From a virus (Duplodnaviria; Heunggongvirae; Uroviricota; Caudoviricetes): 7,067 bases of DNA. The number at the start of each line of letters is the position of its first letter. Positions within the stretch are counted from its first letter, which is position 1. Positions 1 through 7,067 of the stretch are shown one piece after another. The notes under the pieces were generated by a model. That model was not told the DNA's origin and made no database searches. It saw only the letters and a list, made by a program, of their open reading frames with translations. Made by a program: the position numbers and the translations under genes. The stretch lies in IMG/VR virus record IMGVR_UViG_3300029070_000030; one strand, 5' to 3'.

Positions 1-303
1 GGCGGCCGTCACTGCCGGGTCAGCCGGGGGCAGACTGCCGGTCACGGCAGCCACCTTTGCGGCCGCGTCGGACGGGGAAACACCAAACACCTTTTCAACC
101 AGTTTCAGGCCGTCACCGGCACCACACTGATTGCAGTACCAGGTGCCGCGCCCCTCCCTGTCATCAAAACGGAAGCGGTCACTCCCGCCACAGACCGGAC
201 AGGGCTGATGACGGTTTTTCAGCACCTGAATCCCCAGCGCCGGGAGAATACGCGGCCAGTGGCCGAGCGCATGGCTGACGGTGGCGGTTACGTTCATTTT
301 CAT
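1..303 (-). CDS. alpha: P4-type replication protein alpha (primase-helicase), N-terminal ~101 codons only; gene continues past the window start
   Basis: Not in the ORF track because it is truncated. Hand translation of the minus strand from ATG 303 gives MKMNVTATVSHALGHWPRILPALGIQVLKNRHQPCPVCGGSDRFRFDDREGRGTWYCNQCGAGDGLKLVEKVFGVSPSDAAAKVAAVTGSLPPADPAVTAA with no stop to position 1. AAGGAG lies 9 nt upstream of the ATG (plus 313-318). The CPVC...CNQC spacing is a zinc-ribbon of the kind found at the N-terminus of P4-type primases. It sits just downstream of the orf106-like gene, as in P4. Confidence 0.8.
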   Translation of the reverse strand, partial: MKMNVTATVSHALGHWPRILPALGIQVLKNRHQPCPVCGGSDRFRFDDREGRGTWYCNQCGAGDGLKLVEKVFGVSPSDAAAKVAAVTGSLPPADPAVTAA

Positions 304-317
304 GGTGTTGTTCTCCT

Positions 318-638
318 TCAGTGCAGTACCGGCGCTTTTATGTGACGGGCACAGAGTTCATCCATCACAACCAGCCCGAGAAAGGACAGCGACGGCGCGG
401 CCTTCAGGGGGCCGGATTCCATTAAATCTTCCAGCAGGGCACAGGCTATCTGACGCCCTTTTTCCTCACCGTGCTGGCGCAGATAAAAGCCTTCCAGCTC
501 AGCGGCGATGGCCGCCTCCAGTGACTCAAGGGTGAGATGCGGGTAGCGGTGCTGACGTTCGCACACGGTCAGCCAGGCACAGGCGACAGCGCGACGGTAA
601 AGGGCAGCGCGTAAGACGGGCGGTAAGGGTGTTTTCAT
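318..638 (-). CDS. P4 orf106-like small protein (possibly the Cnr copy-number regulator homologue; that name is from memory)
   Basis: 106-aa ORF on the minus strand; GGGAGG lies 7 nt upstream of ATG 638; position immediately upstream of alpha matches the P4 left operon; size matches P4 orf106. Confidence 0.65.
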
Positions 639-773
639 TTGTTTTCCTCCCTGTGACAGATGACTGCATTCCGTGCCGGTTGCATTAACTGATAAGGCAT
701 ATCTGCGTCTCCTGAAGACGTGCGTATCCCTGCGCGAATACGCACATTTAATTTTTCGGGTGTCGTTTTTTAA

Positions 774-1229
774 TTACAGATAATTGCGGTAACTGTTATC
801 CGGGGTGATTTCCGGGTCAGGCTCCGTGCGGGGAATTTCCCGCCATTCCCGCGCTACCGGTGCTGCCCGGCTGACCGGAACAGTGTCCTGCGGGTAAATA
901 TCCAGATATTTCTCCCGCCATTTCTGTAATTCCGGGTCTCCGGCCATTTCTTTCAGTACCGCATGCCGGTTTACGGGGCTGCGTTTAAACAGGTCAGGAC
1001 GGTCACAGGTAAATTCCCGCAGAAAACGCCCCAGCGGGATGTCTGTGGTGCGCCCGTCGGCGAGGATACGCACAAGGATACTGAATTTACGGCGGTACGG
1101 GTTCCAGACAATGTCCGGGCAGCGGTACGGCATTTCCCACGGAATACCGTCTTCCAGAATGCCGACCACGGCCACATCGGGAAAACCGGCAGAACGGTAA
1201 ATCTCACCGGGCTGGGGAAAATCAAACAT
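774..1229 (-). CDS. P4 orf151-like hypothetical protein
   Basis: 151-aa ORF on the minus strand; its ATG (1229-1227) overlaps the stop of the upstream epsilon-like ORF (ATGTTTGA), suggesting translational coupling; size and position match P4 orf151 between eps and alpha. Confidence 0.65.
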   Translation of the reverse strand: MFDFPQPGEIYRSAGFPDVAVVGILEDGIPWEMPYRCPDIVWNPYRRKFSILVRILADGRTTDIPLGRFLREFTCDRPDLFKRSPVNRHAVLKEMAGDPELQKWREKYLDIYPQDTVPVSRAAPVAREWREIPRTEPDPEITPDNSYRNYL

Positions 1230-1509
1230 GCGTCCTGTCTCCCCGGTCTTTCTGCTGGGCGAGAAAATCGCGGCACAGGCCTTTGGCTTTCAGCTCATTC
1301 AGCACAAAATCAATATCTTCATTCAGGTAGCTGAAAATATGCGGAATGTAGAGCTGATGCAGGCCGGAGAGTTCACGGTGAATCAAATCACCCCCAACAA
1401 ACTGGGATACGGCGCTGGCGCGGTTGAGCTTATGGTAAGCCTCAATGCTGAGGTGTTCACGGGCGTCATGACGCGCTGAGACGGTCTGAGGGGCTTTTTT
1501 ATTACGCAC
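1222..1509 (-). CDS. eps: Epsilon-like protein (helper-prophage derepression factor of P4 family); 95 aa if initiated at GTG 1509
   Basis: C-terminal part of the 175-aa track ORF 1222..1749. GGAGG (minus-strand sense) lies 6 nt upstream of GTG 1509, giving [30 protein letters not shown]...DRTHV (95 aa). Alternative in-frame ATGs are at 1554 and 1590. The full 1749 start is unlikely because that stretch overlaps another long ORF and is Cys/Pro/Leu-rich. Position upstream of orf151 matches P4 eps. Start codon uncertain. Confidence 0.5.
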
Positions 1510-1837
1510 GGGACACCTCCACCACCGGCAGACGGGCAGCAAGGGAGAGCACATAGTCACGGACAAGGGAACGGCGGGCGCTGCGTTCATCACCGGCGAC
1601 GGTGCGAAGCATACAGATACGGGGATGACGGTCTGCGCGACGGACAGCCGCAAACACAAAGACAAATTCAGGGTGTGAAGGGGTAAGGGTCGTAGCCATA
1701 AGGCAACCTCCGATAACAGCGTAAATGACGCTATCGCCGGAGTTTCCACGCTCGATGGCGATAGCCCAGACGGGGGTGGAAATACCGGCGTTATCGGAAA
1801 CCGGCCAGCCCGGAGGCTGCCCCGCCTGAGCTACCAT
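1502..1837 (-). CDS. Hypothetical protein upstream of eps (111 aa from ATG 1837; may extend to ATG 2101, 199 aa)
   Basis: Part of the 214-aa track ORF 1502..2146. The C-terminal 111 codons ([31 protein letters not shown]...LPVVEVSRA) look protein-like, and the stop TAA 1504-1502 abuts the eps GTG. An upstream in-frame ATGATGATG (2101-2093) overlaps the vis stop, which would give 199 aa, but that N-terminal stretch has odd composition and a lower-GC, palindrome-rich template. No recognisable motif. Low confidence. Confidence 0.3.
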
Positions 1838-2097
1838 TGACTCTGCGGTATAATGAGCGGACGCGGGCAGAATGCACGGAGTGCCATTTGCTCGACTGAC
1901 CACACACCACACCATAATCTGGCGCTCTGTGGCGTTGATTGCGACACAAAAAAAGACGCATGGCGCGTCATATGTCGCCGATAACATACTCGGGTTTCCA
2001 CGCCCGGCTGCCGATTTTGCGGCAGCGGAAAAACTATATCCGCAAATGCCGGAAAAAGGCAAGCCAGAAAAAGGGACTTTTTGCAGAACAGGCATCA

Positions 2098-2364
2098 TCA
2101 TGCGTCGTACCCCCGTTTGCGTCCGGCAATGCGCCCGGCCATCCATGCGGTGACTTCAGAGTGCAGCCAGGCTACATTTTTACCGCCAAGACTCACCTGC
2201 GGCGGAAATTCCCCCTTACGGATGAATTCGTAGATGGTCGAGCGTGACAGGCCGCACAGGTGCATCACTTCCGGCAGACGTAAAAAACGCTCCTGCGTGA
2301 TGTCCGGCAGCGGCATCAGTGGCGTCACAGGGGCGGGAGACGGGGAAGAAAAAACAGCTTGCAT
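2098..2364 (-). CDS. vis: AlpA/Vis-family phage DNA-binding regulator (88 aa), first gene of the leftward operon
   Basis: 88-aa [81 protein letters not shown]; the FLRLPEV...GLSRSTIY...G.FP....G...W core is the AlpA/Vis helix-turn-helix signature. GAGGT lies 6 nt upstream of ATG 2364. It is divergent from sid, as in P4-like satellites where alpA is a core gene. Confidence 0.8.
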
Positions 2365-2466
2365 CGGGCTACCTCGTTAATGTCCATACAGCACCGGATA
2401 AGTCCGTCCGGCTTCGGGTAGCGCTTTATTTTGTGAATATTTTCGGCAGACGCAACAGGGGGGATT

Positions 2467-2484
2467 TGTTCCGGCAGTCTTACA
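2467..2484 (-). promoter_or_regulatory. TGT-N12-ACA dyad, candidate Ogr/Delta-type activator site of a leftward late promoter (P_LL-like) upstream of vis
   Basis: TGT (2467-2469), 12 nt, ACA (2482-2484). The centre is ~110 bp upstream of the vis ATG, consistent with a site centred near -55 and a ~55-nt leader. The motif is only 6 fixed bases, so chance occurrence is possible. Confidence 0.4.
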
Positions 2485-2642
2485 ATGGCTGTGTGTTTTT
2501 TGTACATCAGCGCCAGATAGCTTTAAAACGCTCTGGAAGGAGCTGGAAAAAATTATAGTGAAATACAAATTGTTTTTTCTTATTTATTTCAGTGAATTAA
2601 TAAAAATAAAAAGTAATAAACAGCACAAAAAGCCCATCAACG

Positions 2643-2747
2643 GGTGAACAGTGGTGAACAGACGGTGAACAGTCATTACTGCGATTGTTCACCCTTTAAC
2701 TTACTGTATTACTTATCTTTTTTCTTATGGTGAACAGAGGTGAACAG
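2643..2747. repeat. Iteron cluster: five direct copies of GGTGAACAG plus one inverted TGTTCACC; P4 alpha-binding type-I iteron (TGTTCACC), ori/crr-like
   Basis: GGTGAACAG at 2643-2651, 2653-2661, 2664-2672, 2729-2737 and 2739-2747; inverted TGTTCACC at 2686-2693; embedded in an AT-rich tract (2560-2760). The octamer is the reverse complement of the P4 type-I iteron bound by alpha (from memory of the P4 literature). Confidence 0.7.
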
Positions 2748-2825
2748 TAAAATATAAAAAAACAAACAGTAAGCCGGTTTTTCCTGCGACCTTTTCCTGG
2801 CTTGCCGGTCTGAGGATGAGTCTCC

Positions 2826-2843
2826 TGTGTCAGGGCTGGCACA
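2826..2843 (+). promoter_or_regulatory. TGT-N12-ACA dyad, candidate Ogr/Delta-type activator site of the sid late promoter (P_sid-like)
   Basis: TGT (2826-2828), 12 nt, ACA (2841-2843). The centre is ~80 bp upstream of the sid ATG (2916), consistent with a -55 activator site and a short leader. P2/P4 late promoters carry this dyad (established knowledge). Confidence 0.5.
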
Positions 2844-2915
2844 TCTGCAATGCGTCGTGTTGTTGTCCGGTGTACGTCACAATTTTCTTAACCTGAAGTG
2901 ACGAGGAGCCGGAAA

Positions 2916-3650
2916 ATGTCTGACAACACCATCCCTGAATATCTGCAACCCGCGCTGGCACAACTGGAAAAGGCCAGAGCCGCCCATCTTGAGAACGCCC
3001 GCCTGATGGATGAGACCGTCACGGCCATTGAACGGGCAGAGCAGGAAAAAAATGCGCTGGCGCAGGCCGACGGAAACGACGCTGACGACTGGCGCACGGC
3101 CTTTCGTGCAGCCGGTGGTGTCCTGAGCGACGAGCTGAAACAGCGCCACATTGAGCGCGTGGCACGCCGGGAGCTGGTACAGGAATATGACAATCTGGCC
3201 GTGGTGCTGAATTTTGAACGCGAACGCCTGAAAGGGGCGTGTGACAGCACGGCCACCGCCTACCGGAAGGCACATCATCACCTTCTGAGTCTGTATGCAG
3301 AGCATGAGCTGGAACACGCCCTGAATGAAACCTGTGAGGCGCTTGTCCGGGCAATGCATCTGAGCATTCTGGTACAGGAAAATCCGCTCGCCAACACCAC
3401 CGGCCATCAGGGCTACGTCGCACCGGAAAAGGCTGTCATGCAGCAGGTGAAATCATCGCTGGAACAGAAAATAAAACAGATGCAAATCAGCCTCACCGGC
3501 GAGCCGGTTCTCCGGCTGACCGGACTGTCAGCGGCAACACTCCCGCACATGGATTATGAGGTGGCAGGCACACCGGCACAGCGCAAGGTGTGGCAGGACA
3601 AAATAGACCAGCAGGGAGCAGTGCTTAAGGCCAGAGGACTGCTGTCATGA
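2916..3650 (+). CDS. sid: Sid-like capsid size-determination (external scaffold) protein, 244 aa
   Basis: Track ORF 2898..3650; preferred start is ATG 2916 (MSDNTIPEYLQPALAQLEKARAAH...) with AGGAG 8 nt upstream, while GTG 2898 has no SD. Strongly alpha-helical, Ala/Glu/Leu/Gln-rich sequence. The 244-aa length matches P4 Sid, and the order sid-delta-psu is diagnostic. Confidence 0.8.
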   Translation: MSDNTIPEYLQPALAQLEKARAAHLENARLMDETVTAIERAEQEKNALAQADGNDADDWRTAFRAAGGVLSDELKQRHIERVARRELVQEYDNLAVVLNFERERLKGACDSTATAYRKAHHHLLSLYAEHELEHALNETCEALVRAMHLSILVQENPLANTTGHQGYVAPEKAVMQQVKSSLEQKIKQMQISLTGEPVLRLTGLSAATLPHMDYEVAGTPAQRKVWQDKIDQQGAVLKARGLLS

Positions 3651-3892
3651 TGCGCTGCCCTTTCTGTCGTCATTCAGCGCATACTCGCACCAGCCGGTAT
3701 GTGAGTGACAATGTCAAAGAAAGTTATCTGCAGTGCCAGAATATTTACTGTTCGGCGACATTTAAAACGCATGAGTCAATTTGTGCCGTGATTCGTTCTC
3801 CGGTCACGGAGGAAAAACCAGCACCGGCAAGCACAGCACCGGCTGTTGTCCGAAAAGTTAAAGGCTGTTACAGCTCACCATTTAACCATTAA
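3647..3892 (+). CDS. delta: Ogr/Delta-family zinc-finger late transcriptional activator, single-domain form (81 aa)
   Basis: MMRCPFCRHSAHTRTSRYVSDNVKESYLQCQNIYCSATFKTHESI carries the C-x2-C ... C-x4-C zinc-finger spacing and RTSRY/CQN..CSATF motifs typical of P2 Ogr and P4 Delta. Its ATG overlaps the sid stop (ATGA at 3647-3650); GAGGA lies 8 nt upstream. Confidence 0.85.
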   Translation: MMRCPFCRHSAHTRTSRYVSDNVKESYLQCQNIYCSATFKTHESICAVIRSPVTEEKPAPASTAPAVVRKVKGCYSSPFNH

Positions 3893-3906
3893 TCAGGAGA
3901 CGGGGT

Positions 3907-4479
3907 GTGACCACAATGTCATTACAGCAGGCTTTTGAGGTCTGCCAGAATAACAAAGCGGCATGGCTGCAACGCAAAAATGAGCTGGCAGCGGCCGAAC
4001 AGGAATATCTGCGGCTTCTGTCAGGAGAAGGCAGAAACGTCAGCCGCCTGGACGAATTACGCAATATTATCGAAGTCAGAAAATGGCAGGTGAATCAGGC
4101 CGCCGGTCGTTATATTCGTTCGCATGAAGCCGTTCAGCACATCAGCATCCGCGAGCGGCTGAATGATTTTATGCAGCAGCACGGCACAGCACTGGCGGCC
4201 GCACTGGCACCGGAGCTGATGGGCTACAGTGAGCTGACGACCATTGCCCGAAACTGTGCCATACAGCGTGCCACAGATGCCCTGCGTGAAGCCCTCCTGT
4301 CCTGGCTTGCGAAGGGTGAAAAAATTAATTATTCCGCACAGGATAGCGACATTTTAACGACCATCGGATTCAGGCCTGACGCGGCTTCGGTGGATGACAG
4401 CCGTGAAAAATTCACCCCTGCGCAGAACATGATTTTTTCGCGTAAAAGTGCAGAACTGGCATCACGTCAGTCTGTGTAA
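3907..4479 (+). CDS. psu: Psu-like polarity-suppression / capsid-decoration protein, 190 aa
   Basis: 190-aa ORF; GTG 3907 start with AGGAGA 6 nt upstream (the ATG at 3916 is too far from the SD). Third gene of the sid-delta-psu late operon; the length equals P4 Psu. It is followed by a hairpin and then cos. Confidence 0.85.
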   Translation: MTTMSLQQAFEVCQNNKAAWLQRKNELAAAEQEYLRLLSGEGRNVSRLDELRNIIEVRKWQVNQAAGRYIRSHEAVQHISIRERLNDFMQQHGTALAAALAPELMGYSELTTIARNCAIQRATDALREALLSWLAKGEKINYSAQDSDILTTIGFRPDAASVDDSREKFTPAQNMIFSRKSAELASRQSV

Positions 4480-4512
4480 AATTCCCCGAAAATCCGCCTG
4501 TTTTTACTGAAA

Positions 4513-4543
4513 AAAGCCATGCATCGATAAGGTGCATGGCTTT
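4513..4543 (+). terminator. Candidate intrinsic terminator of the late operon downstream of psu
   Basis: Perfect inverted repeat AGCCATGCA (4515-4523) / TGCATGGCT (4533-4541) with a 9-nt loop, extendable by A:T pairs to ~11 bp, followed by TTT and a further TTTT at 4551-4554. The U-tract is interrupted, so efficiency is uncertain. Confidence 0.4.
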
Positions 4544-4643
4544 GCATGCGTTTTCCCGCCTCATTTCCTGCAGATTACGCCGCGCCCGACGCGGCGTGAG
4601 CGTGTCAGTGCAACTGCATTAAAACCGCCCCGCAAAGCGGGCG

Positions 4644-4687: not shown

Positions 4688-5644
4688 TTAAATGCCAAGC
4701 AATAATTTTTTCTTGAAGTAGCTTTCAAAGCTATCCTTATCACCATTGAATACACCCATCAACTCATCAGAGTTTATTATTATATTCATTATTTCTCTTA
4801 AATAATTATCAAGTTTAATGCTTTCCTCTGGTAGTTTTCCAACTTTAGATGATTTTAAACTGTCACCATGAGTAACTTTAGAGCGAATGTTATAGAATGA
4901 CTTTATTTCATCAAATGTAGTGATAGGATCAAAGTTATATGGTTTTAAGAAAATAGCGACCCGCTCAGAAAGTTTATGAGAAAGTTCAGAGCTATCTGTT
5001 GAGAATAAGCTCTCAAGTGCGCTGCAGTAGTGAGATATTTTCATTGCGGGATCGAAATCTCGCTTTGCTGATCTTATAAAACTCAATGCCCTTCCATAGC
5101 GAGAATATTTTGAATCAACAAAAGAATCAAAAATAGTAGAGTTATTATTATATAGGTGAGTTTGAACTCGATGGTTTATATCTGCCCACTTAGTTAAGTC
5201 ACTCCTGTTAAATTCAACATCAATATGGCGATAACCGCTTGCCATCGTAAATAAACTTAATAGACTATTGTTCGACCATTCAGAATATGCTTTGCGATCA
5301 GTTTTATTGCAATATGCAATTTCGCAAAGCATGCCATTATCCTTGATAAACCAAGAAGTATTTATAAGCATATCTATCCACAAAAGCCAAGTCGTCAATG
5401 CAAAATTGCTTTTTGTAGACGGCTGAAAAAAATCATCTTTAAGATCGGCAAAAATTATGTGATTTGCATTGTATAAATGTTCATATTCAATGATACCAGT
5501 AAAAGGCTTAATATCTTTGTTAATTATTTTTCTAATTTTTGCCCTATCTCTTATTAGAGTAACTCCGGGAAGGAGGTCAAAATCATCGAAATTATCCCCT
5601 ATAACATTCATAAATCTTAATGTTGTGTAGAATTTAAAGTGCAT
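4688..5644 (-). CDS. Hypothetical protein, 318 aa, AT-rich hotspot cargo; function unknown (candidate anti-phage defence / abortive-infection protein)
   Basis: 318-aa ORF with no internal stops in strongly AT-rich DNA that contrasts sharply with the GC-rich P4 backbone. GGAG lies 7 nt upstream of ATG 5644, and the start overlaps the last codons of int. Located between cos and int, the variable hotspot of P4-like satellites. I recognise no family; the only motif noted is a possible Rx4H (R254...H259, NIRSKVTHGD), which is weak. Confidence 0.8.
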   Translation of the reverse strand: MHFKFYTTLRFMNVIGDNFDDFDLLPGVTLIRDRAKIRKIINKDIKPFTGIIEYEHLYNANHIIFADLKDDFFQPSTKSNFALTTWLLWIDMLINTSWFIKDNGMLCEIAYCNKTDRKAYSEWSNNSLLSLFTMASGYRHIDVEFNRSDLTKWADINHRVQTHLYNNNSTIFDSFVDSKYSRYGRALSFIRSAKRDFDPAMKISHYCSALESLFSTDSSELSHKLSERVAIFLKPYNFDPITTFDEIKSFYNIRSKVTHGDSLKSSKVGKLPEESIKLDNYLREIMNIIINSDELMGVFNGDKDSFESYFKKKLLLGI

Positions 5645-6830
5645 TATATATCTCCATATTCATTTTCGGATATAATCTATCACTATACCATTGCATCATT
5701 TCTTTCCTTTTCTCTAAATATTGTGCATGGTTATATGTGCCTCGAATTGTGTTTTTATCTACATGAGCTAATTGCATTTCAATCCATACACTATTGAATC
5801 CTTTTTCATGCAAAATGGTTGACATGGTATGCCTGAACCCATGACCTGTTGCACGACCTTTGTAGCCTAATAACTCAATCACCTGTGTCACACTTTCTTT
5901 AGATATAGGTTTACTACGATTATTTCTACCTATAAAAATGTAGGGATAATGGCCGCTAATAGGCTTGAGCTGTTTAAAAAGGGCAATCACCTGAGTAGAT
6001 AGAGGTACAATATGAGGTCTGCGCATTTTCATCCTTTCAGCTGGAATCTCCCATATTCCTTTCTCAAGGTCAACTTCATCCCACGTGGCAAAGCGCATTT
6101 CCTGAGTTCTTACGCCAGTTAACATGACAATTTTTGTCGCATTTTTAGTGATGATGCTTCCGGTATACGCTTCAAGATCTTGAATAAAATAAGGCAATTC
6201 TTCGGCAGATAAAAATGGGTGGTGTTTTTGCTTAGGAACGGCCAGAGCGATAGCTAAATCAGGTGCTGGATTGTATTCAGCGCGGCCAGTGATGATCGCG
6301 TAGCGAAACACCTCTCCGCATCGTTGACGTACTTTTCTGGTTTTCTCCAACGCTCCACGTTTTTCTATGCGTTTAAGAACTTCAAGCAGTTCTAGGGGTT
6401 TAATTTCAGCTATTGGCCGTTTACCAATGAAAGGAAAAACATCCTGTTCAAATGTTTTAATAATTTCTTCGCGATAAGCTAAAGTCCAGCGATCTGCTTT
6501 TGTTGCATGCCATTCTCTGCTAACGGCCTCAAAAGAGTTTTCAGTTGATAATTTCTGAGCAATTTTCTGAGCCTTACGTTCTTCTACTGGATCAATGCCG
6601 TTTGCAACCTGTTTACGTGCCGTATCGCGTTTCTCACGTGCTTCCGCGAGGCTTACAAGATCGTAACTACCAAATGACATTAACCGCGCTTTACCGGCAA
6701 AACGAAAGCGGAATCGCCATCCCTTTGAGCCGTCTGGATTGATGAGTAATGACAAGCCTTGCCCATCATTCATTGTATATGGTTTGTCTTGTGGTTTTGC
6801 GCGTTTGATTTGTATATCGGTTAGAGCCAT
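5634..6830 (-). CDS. int: P4-type tyrosine integrase (site-specific recombinase), selC-specific
   Basis: 398-aa ORF beginning MALTDIQIKRAKPQDKPYTMNDGQGLSLLINPDGSKGWRFRFRF, the characteristic N-terminal arm-binding domain of P4-family integrases. C-terminal catalytic region has HGFRHT...LAHVDKNTIRGTYNHAQY (H-x-x-R ... H ... Y). It lies directly downstream of, and co-oriented with, a tRNA gene 3' end. Confidence 0.9.
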   Translation of the reverse strand: MALTDIQIKRAKPQDKPYTMNDGQGLSLLINPDGSKGWRFRFRFAGKARLMSFGSYDLVSLAEAREKRDTARKQVANGIDPVEERKAQKIAQKLSTENSFEAVSREWHATKADRWTLAYREEIIKTFEQDVFPFIGKRPIAEIKPLELLEVLKRIEKRGALEKTRKVRQRCGEVFRYAIITGRAEYNPAPDLAIALAVPKQKHHPFLSAEELPYFIQDLEAYTGSIITKNATKIVMLTGVRTQEMRFATWDEVDLEKGIWEIPAERMKMRRPHIVPLSTQVIALFKQLKPISGHYPYIFIGRNNRSKPISKESVTQVIELLGYKGRATGHGFRHTMSTILHEKGFNSVWIEMQLAHVDKNTIRGTYNHAQYLEKRKEMMQWYSDRLYPKMNMEIYNAL

Positions 6831-6992
6831 GTGTATAACTGAAAACTGCGTATGAAGATTCTATACACATTACTATACATATTTTTCGCGGATTCAGGGA
6901 GATGGTCTCGGACTATTACGGACAAGATGATTATTCATCTTATTGAATATAAAGTATTTTATGGAGTATCTCGGAACTGGCTGGATGAAGTT

Positions 6993-7067
6993 TGGCGGAA
7001 GATCACAGGAGTCGAACCTGCCCGGGACCGCTGGCGGCCCCAACTGGATTTGAAGTCCAGCCGCCTC
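6993..7067 (-). tRNA. selC: tRNA-Sec (selC), 3' 75 nt including CCA; 5' ~20 nt lie beyond the window end
   Basis: Reverse complement of 6993-7067 reads GAGGCGGCTGGACTTCAAATCCAGTTGGGGCCGCCAGCGGTCCCGGGCAGGTTCGACTCCTGTGATCTTCCGCCA, which matches my recollection of positions 21-95 of E. coli selC (anticodon loop CTTCAAATC with UCA, long variable arm, T-arm GGTTCGACTCC, 3' CCA). Confidence 0.9.

What the first reader, a model, noticed from the sequence alone, without database searches (positions are those of the whole stretch)
2643..2747. Cluster of six TGTTCACC-type iterons in the sid-vis intergenic region (ori/crr-like)
Five tandem or near-tandem copies of GGTGAACAG plus one inverted copy sit in an AT-rich tract. 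The octamer equals the alpha-binding type-I iteron of P4, so this is probably a replication origin or cis-replication region. Its placement inside the divergent late-promoter region suggests replication initiation and late transcription share DNA.
Basis: partly seen in the sequence, partly recalled or inferred. Interest (0 to 1): 0.5.

Follow-up and report, generated by a model that had tools for sequence, protein, structure and literature searches.

The report
Replication origin of a P4-like satellite
The six repeats are the already-characterised replication origin (ori) of satellite phage P4, here in a P4-like prophage sitting in the E. coli selC tRNA gene, so the finding is correct but ordinary.

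Summary
Five GGTGAACAG copies and one inverted TGTTCACC lie at 2643-2747, where chance predicts 0.02 copies. They are flanked by DNA of 20-24% G+C.

The window is a P4-like prophage at selC. Bases 1-4643 match phage P4 (X51522) at 96.9%. The six octamers coincide one-to-one with the six "ori type 1 repeat" features inside P4's annotated rep_origin, and the 105-nt block differs from P4 at 2 bases.

The layout is 3 direct, 1 inverted, a 35-bp AT-rich spacer, then 2 direct, phased at about 10.7 bp. It persists in diverged P4-like elements. A 99.7%-identical complete element encodes an alpha primase-helicase 99% identical to P4's, including the solved origin-binding domain (PDB 1KA8). That element also carries crr repeats with the same octamer.

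So this is ori, not crr, and it is already known.

The most interesting thing lies next door. P4's "type 2 repeats", which match the consensus of P2 Cox boxes, are replaced here by a different allele. That allele resembles the Cox operator of another P2-like helper lineage.

The parts
2643..2650 (-). Type I iteron 1 (TGTTCACC on the minus strand; reads GGTGAACA on plus)
   Evidence: Exact match. Corresponds to X51522 'ori type 1 repeat' 9310-9317.
2653..2660 (-). Type I iteron 2
   Evidence: Corresponds to X51522 9320-9327.
2664..2671 (-). Type I iteron 3
   Evidence: Corresponds to X51522 9331-9338.
2686..2693 (+). Type I iteron 4, inverted relative to the other five
   Evidence: Corresponds to X51522 9353-9360. 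Together with iteron 3 it forms the 11-bp inverted repeat that the terminator scan flagged.
2694..2728 (.). 35-bp AT-rich spacer (20% G+C) between iterons 4 and 5; probable unwinding segment
   Evidence: Composition. Its length and most of its sequence are conserved in 46 distinct P4-like origin blocks. It differs from P4 at 2 bases.
2729..2736 (-). Type I iteron 5
   Evidence: Corresponds to X51522 9396-9403.
2739..2746 (-). Type I iteron 6
   Evidence: Corresponds to X51522 9406-9413. In diverged relatives it is often GGTGAATAG.
2556..2642 (.). AT-rich tract (23% G+C) to the left of the iterons, inside P4's annotated rep_origin
   Evidence: P4 rep_origin 9086-9809 corresponds to roughly window 2420-3143.
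1..303 (-). First 101 codons of alpha, the primase-helicase-origin-binding initiator; the rest lies beyond the window's left end
   Evidence: Translation. P4 alpha CDS mapped. The full-length alpha of a 99.7%-identical element is 99% identical to P4 alpha, and its residues 671-770 match PDB 1KA8.
318..638 (-). cnr (P4 ORF106, DUF5375). From memory, it is the copy-number regulator that acts on alpha binding.
   Evidence: Pfam DUF5375, E=2.9e-63. Coincides with P4 ORF106. The function is from memory and was not tested here.
2509..2553 (.). Context: the block that replaces P4's three 'ori type 2 repeats', which match the P2 Cox-box consensus. It is not part of the replication iterons.
   Evidence: Divergent from P4 in alignment A1. 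At least three discrete alleles exist on near-identical origin backgrounds. Its resemblance to helper Cox-operator regions is shown.
2467..2484 (.). Context: TGT-N12-ACA dyad on the vis/PLL side (Ogr/Delta-type activator site by consensus)
   Evidence: The assignment as an activator site is from memory of the P2/P4 late-promoter literature.
2826..2881 (.). Context: two TGT-N12-ACA dyads (2826-2843 and 2864-2881) upstream of sid (Psid side)
   Evidence: The assignment is from memory.

Best explanation
The cluster is the replication origin (ori, also called ori1) of a P4-type satellite prophage. Six 8-bp type I iterons lie on one face of the helix with a period of about 10.7 bp. They are the binding sites for the C-terminal winged-helix domain of the element's own alpha protein, which combines primase, SF3 helicase and origin binding. 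Alpha bound at ori acts together with the second iteron-bearing site, crr, downstream of the alpha gene. It opens the adjacent AT-rich DNA, loads itself as helicase and primes synthesis, so the excised element can replicate without the host initiator. What is shown here: sequence identity with the annotated P4 origin, conserved architecture, the cognate alpha and crr in the same element type. What is inferred from P4 literature: alpha binding, melting, the need for crr, and modulation by Cnr.
For: The six octamers map one-to-one onto the six 'ori type 1 repeat' features inside the rep_origin of X51522/NC_001609. The 105-nt block has only 2 mismatches to P4. The repeat count is far beyond chance, 5 observed against 0.02 expected. 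The iteron offsets of 0, 10, 21, 43, 86 and 96 bp give a phase concentration of R=0.97-0.98 at a period of 10.67-10.75 bp. The same 3+1+spacer+2 layout is kept in elements whose intergenic region is only 68-79% identical. It is also kept in 46 distinct IMG/VR blocks, where the iteron 3-4 spacer varies but iterons 3, 4 and 5 barely do. A complete element 99.7% identical to the window (L003) has an intact alpha 99% identical to P4's. Its residues 671-770 match the solved P4 origin-binding domain 1KA8 at E=1e-63. The same element has two crr units with 3 exact TGTTCACC each, and 12 copies in 19 kb against 0.54 expected. A diverged alpha (84% identical) keeps the GTGAACA core at both ori and crr. 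On the literature: the title of Ziegelin et al. 1993 names origin recognition as an alpha activity (cited in PMC8628076), and Yeo et al. 2002 describe the origin-binding domain (cited in PMC2777425).
Against: Nothing here measures alpha binding or replication for this particular element. The window holds only the first 101 codons of alpha and no crr, so their integrity rests on a 99.7%-identical relative. In that relative the two crr units are 2.6 kb apart instead of about 190 bp, and its effect on replication is unknown. The primary P4 replication papers could not be opened in the held library, so details such as the 123-bp minimal ori1 are from memory.
Confidence: 0.93

Rival explanations
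1. It is the cis-required region (crr) rather than the origin proper.
For: crr carries the same TGTTCACC octamer, so the word alone does not tell the two sites apart.
Against: In P4, crr lies downstream of alpha (4291-4590) and consists of two 120-bp direct repeats. In the element type of this window, the crr units lie beyond the window's left end (L003 3837-3919 and 1220-1302). The window block aligns base-for-base with P4 9310-9413, the ori repeats between ORF88 and sid.
Confidence: 0.02
2. The repeats are operator sites through which alpha or another factor regulates the divergent late promoters (PLL/Psid), and replication is secondary.
For: The cluster lies between the two divergent late transcription units. 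Initiator binding at origins can repress neighbouring promoters in other replicons (general knowledge).
Against: The iterons are 159 bp and 80 bp from the nearest activator-type dyads and do not overlap them. The same word recurs at crr, downstream of alpha's terminator, where the P4 record annotates no promoter. It also recurs downstream of the primase-helicase gene of an unrelated satellite type, in a typical origin position.
Confidence: 0.04
3. It is a fossil: an origin sequence retained in a defective prophage that no longer replicates.
For: Many P4-like prophages are cryptic. In the closest complete relative the crr units are separated by a 2.6-kb retron insertion.
Against: The iteron block is identical in L003 and many IMG/VR contigs and is 2 mismatches from functional P4. 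alpha, cnr, vis, sid, delta, psu, int and both att repeats are intact in L003. 442 E. coli genomes carry at least 80% of the window.
Confidence: 0.1

Closest known systems
Phage P4 origin of replication, ori / ori1 (X51522 9310-9413, within rep_origin 9086-9809)
   Same: The same six TGTTCACC octamers in the same order, orientation and spacing. The same 35-bp AT-rich spacer apart from 2 substitutions. The same position between ORF88/vis and sid. The cognate alpha is 99% identical.
   Different: The host element is integrated at selC with a different integrase and cargo, and has a single-domain 81-aa delta. The neighbouring 'type 2 repeat' block inside P4's annotated ori region is replaced by another allele.
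Phage P4 crr (cis replication region; X51522 4291-4590)
   Same: It uses the same octamer and, per the P4 literature, the same binding protein.
   Different: It has a different architecture (two 120-bp direct repeats with mixed-orientation iterons) and a different location (downstream of alpha). It is not in this window.
Origins of Gram-negative PICI-type satellites (two iteron sets flanking an AT-rich region, downstream of pri-rep; PMC6092414)
   Same: One such element (L006, with capsid, decoration and small-terminase genes) carries at least 9 exact TGTTCACC copies just downstream of a primase-helicase. That protein is 48% identical to alpha residues 290-771, including the origin-binding domain. 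43 of 120 IMG/VR pattern hits share its geometry of inverted pairs 128 bp apart.
   Different: The N-terminal part of the protein does not align with alpha's, the iteron arrangement differs, the origin follows the initiator gene, and the satellite family is different.
Iteron-type plasmid origins in general (named from memory; not compared here)
   Same: The same logic: helically phased direct repeats for an element-encoded initiator next to an AT-rich unwinding segment (PMC2777425).
   Different: By the domain organisation given in PMC2777425, alpha carries primase, SF3 helicase and winged-helix domains in one polypeptide. From memory, P4 replication does not need DnaA, DnaB or DnaG but does need the distant second site, crr.

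Membership tests
P4 ori (ori1) | Six type I iterons with the octamer TGTTCACC | tested here: met
   Six exact copies, each aligned to an annotated 'ori type 1 repeat' of X51522.
P4 ori (ori1) | Arrangement of 3 direct, 1 inverted, an AT-rich spacer, then 2 direct, spaced close to the helical repeat | tested here: met
   Offsets are 0, 10, 21, 43, 86 and 96 bp, giving R=0.97-0.98 at 10.67-10.75 bp. The spacer is 35 bp at 20% G+C.
P4 ori (ori1) | Map position between vis (ORF88)/PLL and Psid/sid | tested here: met
   vis is at 2098-2364 (minus strand) and sid at 2917-3650 (plus strand).
P4 ori (ori1) | Cognate alpha protein with the C-terminal origin-binding winged-helix domain encoded by the same element | tested here: met
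   The window has alpha codons 1-101. The 99.7%-identical element L003 has a full alpha 99% identical to P4's, and residues 671-770 match 1KA8 at E=1e-63. The C-terminus itself is not in the window.
P4 ori (ori1) | A crr with type I iterons present in cis | tested here: met
   L003 has two crr-like units aligned to P4 crr repeats A and B. They lie outside the window and are separated by 2.6 kb in that element.
P4 ori (ori1) | Specific binding by alpha and alpha-dependent initiation of replication | not testable with these tools
   This needs EMSA or footprinting and a replication assay.
P4 crr | Two 120-bp direct repeats downstream of the alpha gene and its terminator | tested here: not met
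   There is no 120-bp direct repeat at 2643-2747. The block lies 2.3 kb upstream of alpha's start, not downstream of its end.

The most novel reading that the evidence does not exclude
The invariant origin sits directly beside a swappable helper-sensing cassette. P4's so-called 'ori type 2 repeats' match the P2 Cox-box consensus, and P2 Cox is known to bind upstream of PLL and switch it on. In this window they are replaced by a different ~45-bp allele (2509-2553) that resembles the Cox-operator region of another P2-like helper lineage. A third allele resembles yet another lineage. If true, P4-like satellites change which helper can induce them by exchanging this small cassette, while keeping ori, alpha and the late promoters unchanged.
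Probability: 0.4. Interest if true: 0.45.

Novelty: already known. Interest (0 to 1): 0.1.

Why it matters
For the finding itself the value is annotation. It identifies the origin of a common E. coli satellite prophage (at least 80% of the window is present in 442 of 5,426 complete genomes) and shows that the origin module is essentially frozen across the family. It does not open a new question. The neighbouring Cox-box allele variation could matter more, because it offers a testable molecular basis for which helper phage can wake which satellite.

Tried and rejected
1. crr identity was rejected on position and architecture.

2. I tested whether P4's type 2 repeats are integrase arm-type sites that co-vary with the different integrase. 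They are not: P4's arm repeats (TTGGGGGCATAT-like) are unrelated, and the type 2 word is unique in P4.

3. I considered whether the type 2 block tracks Vis. This is unlikely, because Vis is 98% identical to P4's while the block is replaced. Both of the substitutions fall within the stretch matched by the HTH-type Pfam models, so it is not excluded.

4. A direct BLAST of the window's type 2 allele against 50,697 phage records gave only chance hits. The resemblance to helper operators appeared only with targeted local alignment.

5. The sigma-70 promoter scan of 2300-2950 found nothing, as expected for activator-dependent late promoters. The 'terminator' it reported at 2664-2693 is simply iterons 3 and 4 in inverted orientation.

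6. The 'consensus -10' and '5' untranslated region' features of the 1984 record X02534 do not correspond to credible signals and were not used.

7. The primary P4 replication papers and reviews were not held in the library under the ids I tried. Three literature searches failed on term length.

Full report
**Observation.**
The window contains exactly six perfect copies of TGTTCACC, all between 2643 and 2746. Five are on the minus strand, reading GGTGAACA(G) on the plus strand, at 2643, 2653, 2664, 2729 and 2739. One is on the plus strand at 2686-2693. The 9-mer GGTGAACAG occurs five times where dinucleotide-preserving shuffles give a mean of 0.02 and never reach five. The repeats form a tandem triplet (spacing 10 and 11 bp) and a tandem pair (10 bp) that starts 65 bp after the triplet's last copy, with the inverted copy between them. 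The surrounding DNA is AT-rich:
- the 35-bp stretch 2694-2728 is 20% G+C;
- 2556-2642 is 23% G+C;
- 2747-2775 is 24% G+C;
- the whole window is 49% G+C.
The observation and its coordinates are confirmed.

**What the window is.**
Bases 1-4643 match phage P4 (X51522 / NC_001609) positions 6667-11624 at 96.9%. The gene order is that of P4:

| Feature | Window position | Strand |
|---|---|---|
| alpha, first 101 codons | 1-303 | minus |
| cnr / ORF106 | 318-638 | minus |
| orf151 | 774-1229 | minus |
| epsilon | 1222-1509 | minus |
| Ash/Icd-like ORF | 1502-2146 | minus |
| vis | 2098-2364 | minus |
| sid | 2917-3650 | plus |
| delta | 3647-3892 | plus |
| psu | 3907-4479 | plus |

Rfam finds the C4-type immunity RNA with its a1/b1 targets, and isrK, at 1754-2039. 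It also finds a 5'-truncated tRNA-Sec at 6997-7067. To the right of psu lie a 318-aa gene that RefSeq calls HEPN-domain, and a 398-aa tyrosine integrase. The window is 99.7% identical to a prophage in E. coli WY517-2, and 442 of 5,426 complete E. coli genomes hold at least 80% of it. In that genome a 23-bp direct repeat, TTTGGCGGAAGATCACAGGAGTC, at the 3' end of selC and again 12 kb away delimits an element of about 11.98 kb.

**Identity of the repeat cluster.**
The P4 GenBank record carries a rep_origin feature (9086-9809) containing six 'ori type 1 repeat' features. In alignment with the window they fall exactly on the six octamers, with the same strands. From about 2620 to the start of sid the window and P4 are nearly identical. 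The 105-nt iteron block differs at two positions, both in the AT-rich spacer. Its hedge 'ori/crr' resolves to ori. crr is annotated in P4 at 4291-4590, downstream of alpha, as two 120-bp direct repeats, and it lies outside this window.

**Anatomy.**
The iteron offsets are 0, 10, 21, 43, 86 and 96 bp. They are tightly phased for a period of 10.67-10.75 bp (circular concentration R=0.97-0.98, against 0.16 at 10.0 bp). All six sites therefore lie on one face of the helix. From memory of Tocchetti et al. 1999 (J Virol), which I could not open here:
- the minimal P4 ori1 is 123 bp and comprises the six iterons and a 35-bp AT-rich region;
- it is inactivated by deleting an iteron or by inserting 6 or 10 bp.
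The 35-bp, 20% G+C spacer at 2694-2728 fits that description.

**Conservation.**
Two diverged E. coli elements have intergenic regions only 68% and 79% identical to the window. Both keep the 3+1+spacer+2 layout with the GTGAACA core. Of all 124 loci examined, which include four fetched earlier, 69 carry a P4-type block, in 46 distinct versions. The first two iterons are fixed by the search pattern, so they say nothing. Among the rest, iterons 3, 4 and 5 are almost invariant, while the short spacer between iterons 3 and 4 is freely substituted. This sample is biased toward close relatives and is supportive rather than decisive.

**The partners.**
The window holds only the N-terminus of alpha. 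The complete, 99.7%-identical element L003 encodes a 777-aa alpha that is 99% identical to P4's. Its residues 671-770 match the crystallised P4 origin-binding domain, PDB 1KA8, at E=1e-63. L003 also has two crr-like units that align with both P4 crr repeats, each with three exact TGTTCACC. An alpha only 84% identical (L004) still sits with GTGAACA clusters at both ori and crr. Two papers support alpha as the origin recogniser:
- Ziegelin et al. 1993, whose title is quoted in PMC8628076;
- Yeo et al. 2002, cited in PMC2777425, which also describes alpha's primase, SF3 helicase and winged-helix organisation.

**Mechanism.**
What is shown here is sequence identity with the annotated origin, phasing, conservation, and presence of the cognate initiator and crr. 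What is inferred from P4 work is the following. Alpha binds the phased iterons through its C-terminal winged helix. It cooperates with crr in cis, melts the AT-rich DNA, and acts as its own helicase and primase. Cnr modulates binding to limit copy number. I put 0.93 on this.

**Relation to late transcription.**
Three of the window's four TGT-N12-ACA dyads fall in this intergenic region, at 2467-2484, 2826-2843 and 2864-2881. From memory, this is the Ogr/Delta activator consensus. They bracket the iterons at distances of 159 and 80 bp without overlapping them. The origin and the divergent late promoters share an intergenic region, as on the published P4 map, but not binding sites. No evidence here suggests coupling.

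**Rivals.**
- crr is excluded by position and architecture.
- A purely transcriptional operator role is unlikely. The same word recurs at crr, where the P4 record annotates no promoter, and at an origin-like position downstream of the primase-helicase gene of a different satellite.
- A fossil origin cannot be excluded without experiment. However, all replication and hijacking genes are intact in L003 and the block is identical across many contigs.

**Next to the origin (outside the finding's coordinates).**
The one strongly divergent stretch between the window and P4 is 2509-2553. It corresponds to P4's three 'ori type 2 repeats', CCACTTAAAG / TCATTTAAAG / CCACTTAAAG.

*Link to Cox.* The P4 type 2 repeats match the P2 Cox-box consensus TTAAA(G/C)NC(A/C). 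P2 Cox binds upstream of P4 PLL and activates it (PMC3936717). WPhi Cox recognises a different repeat and does not activate P4 (PMC5009727).

*Alleles.* Among IMG/VR elements whose iteron blocks differ from the window by at most 3 of 105 bases, this block occurs as at least three discrete alleles. These are the P4 type, the window type and a third type. More distant elements carry 3-5 tandem ~10-bp repeats of yet other words.

*Comparison with helper operators.* I aligned each allele locally against 68 distinct C-cox intergenic regions of P2-like phages.

| Satellite allele | Best-matching helper type | Score | Dinucleotide shuffles reaching it |
|---|---|---|---|
| A (P4) | P2 type | 31 | 0 of 300 |
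| B (this window) | L170 type | 29 | 1 of 300 |
| C | L201 type | 29 | 2 of 300 |

Scores against the P2 and WPhi reference types are 12-19, although allele B also scores 25-26 against other WPhi-family helpers including L201. Coding-sequence controls from the same loci score 20-24. This suggests that the 'type 2 repeats' are a helper-sensing cassette with alleles matched to different Cox specificities. The evidence is suggestive only. I found no paper on it in the held library.

**Other things noticed.**
- In L003 the two crr units are 2.6 kb apart because a type XII retron RT-TIR gene lies between them. The usual gap is about 190 bp. Four other loci also show insertions at or next to crr.
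- A capsid-encoding PICI-like satellite (L006) has a primase-helicase 48% identical to alpha residues 290-771, followed by at least nine TGTTCACC copies. 43 of the 120 IMG/VR hits share that geometry.
- Delta here is a single 81-aa Ogr/Delta domain, against P4's 166 aa.

**Verdict.**
The feature is the well-characterised P4 origin in a common selC-integrated relative. It is already known and of low interest (0.1). The most novel reading still open concerns the neighbouring Cox-box cassette, not the iterons.

Noticed in passing
window 2509-2553: P4's three 'ori type 2 repeats' match the P2 Cox-box consensus TTAAA(G/C)NC(A/C). Here they are replaced by a different ~45-bp allele. At least three discrete alleles exist on near-identical origin backgrounds. 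Each one best resembles the cox-upstream operator region of a different P2-like helper lineage (scores 29-31; 0-2 of 300 shuffles reach them).
   Followed up: partly
L003 1170-3957 (NZ_CP076259.1; left of the window): The two crr repeat units are 2.6 kb apart instead of about 190 bp, because a type XII retron RT-TIR defence gene and a wHTH pseudogene lie between them. L059, L058, L005 and L045 also have insertions at or next to crr, which suggests a second, minor cargo site in P4-like satellites.
   Followed up: partly
L006 5047-7100 (NZ_CP024815.1): A satellite of another type, with major capsid, decoration and small-terminase genes, encodes a 605-aa primase-helicase 48% identical to alpha residues 290-771. 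It carries at least 9 exact TGTTCACC iterons just downstream. 43 of 120 IMG/VR pattern hits share its geometry of inverted pairs 128 bp apart. The helicase, origin-binding domain and iterons are therefore shared as a module between satellite families.
   Followed up: partly
window 3647-3892: delta is an 81-aa single Ogr/Delta zinc-finger domain, half the size of P4's 166-aa delta. From memory this resembles phiR73, which also integrates at selC.
   Followed up: no
window 4688-5644 (minus strand): A 318-aa cargo gene lies between psu/cos and int, the known P4 defence hotspot. RefSeq calls it HEPN-domain, but it has no Pfam or PADLOC hit at E<=0.001.
   Followed up: partly
window 5634-7067: A 398-aa tyrosine integrase is followed by a 5'-truncated tRNA-Sec (selC). 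In the full element, a 23-bp att repeat TTTGGCGGAAGATCACAGGAGTC bounds an island of about 11.98 kb.
   Followed up: yes
window 1754-2039 (minus strand): Rfam hits to C4 antisense RNA, its a1/b1 targets and isrK mark the P4-type RNA immunity region. They overlap a 214-aa Ash/Icd-like ORF (1502-2146) that is longer than the 137-aa 'cI' ORF of the old P4 record.
   Followed up: no
window 2664-2693: The terminator-like hairpin reported by the consensus scan is just iterons 3 and 4 in inverted orientation (11-bp arms, 8-nt loop). It is probably not a terminator.
   Followed up: partly
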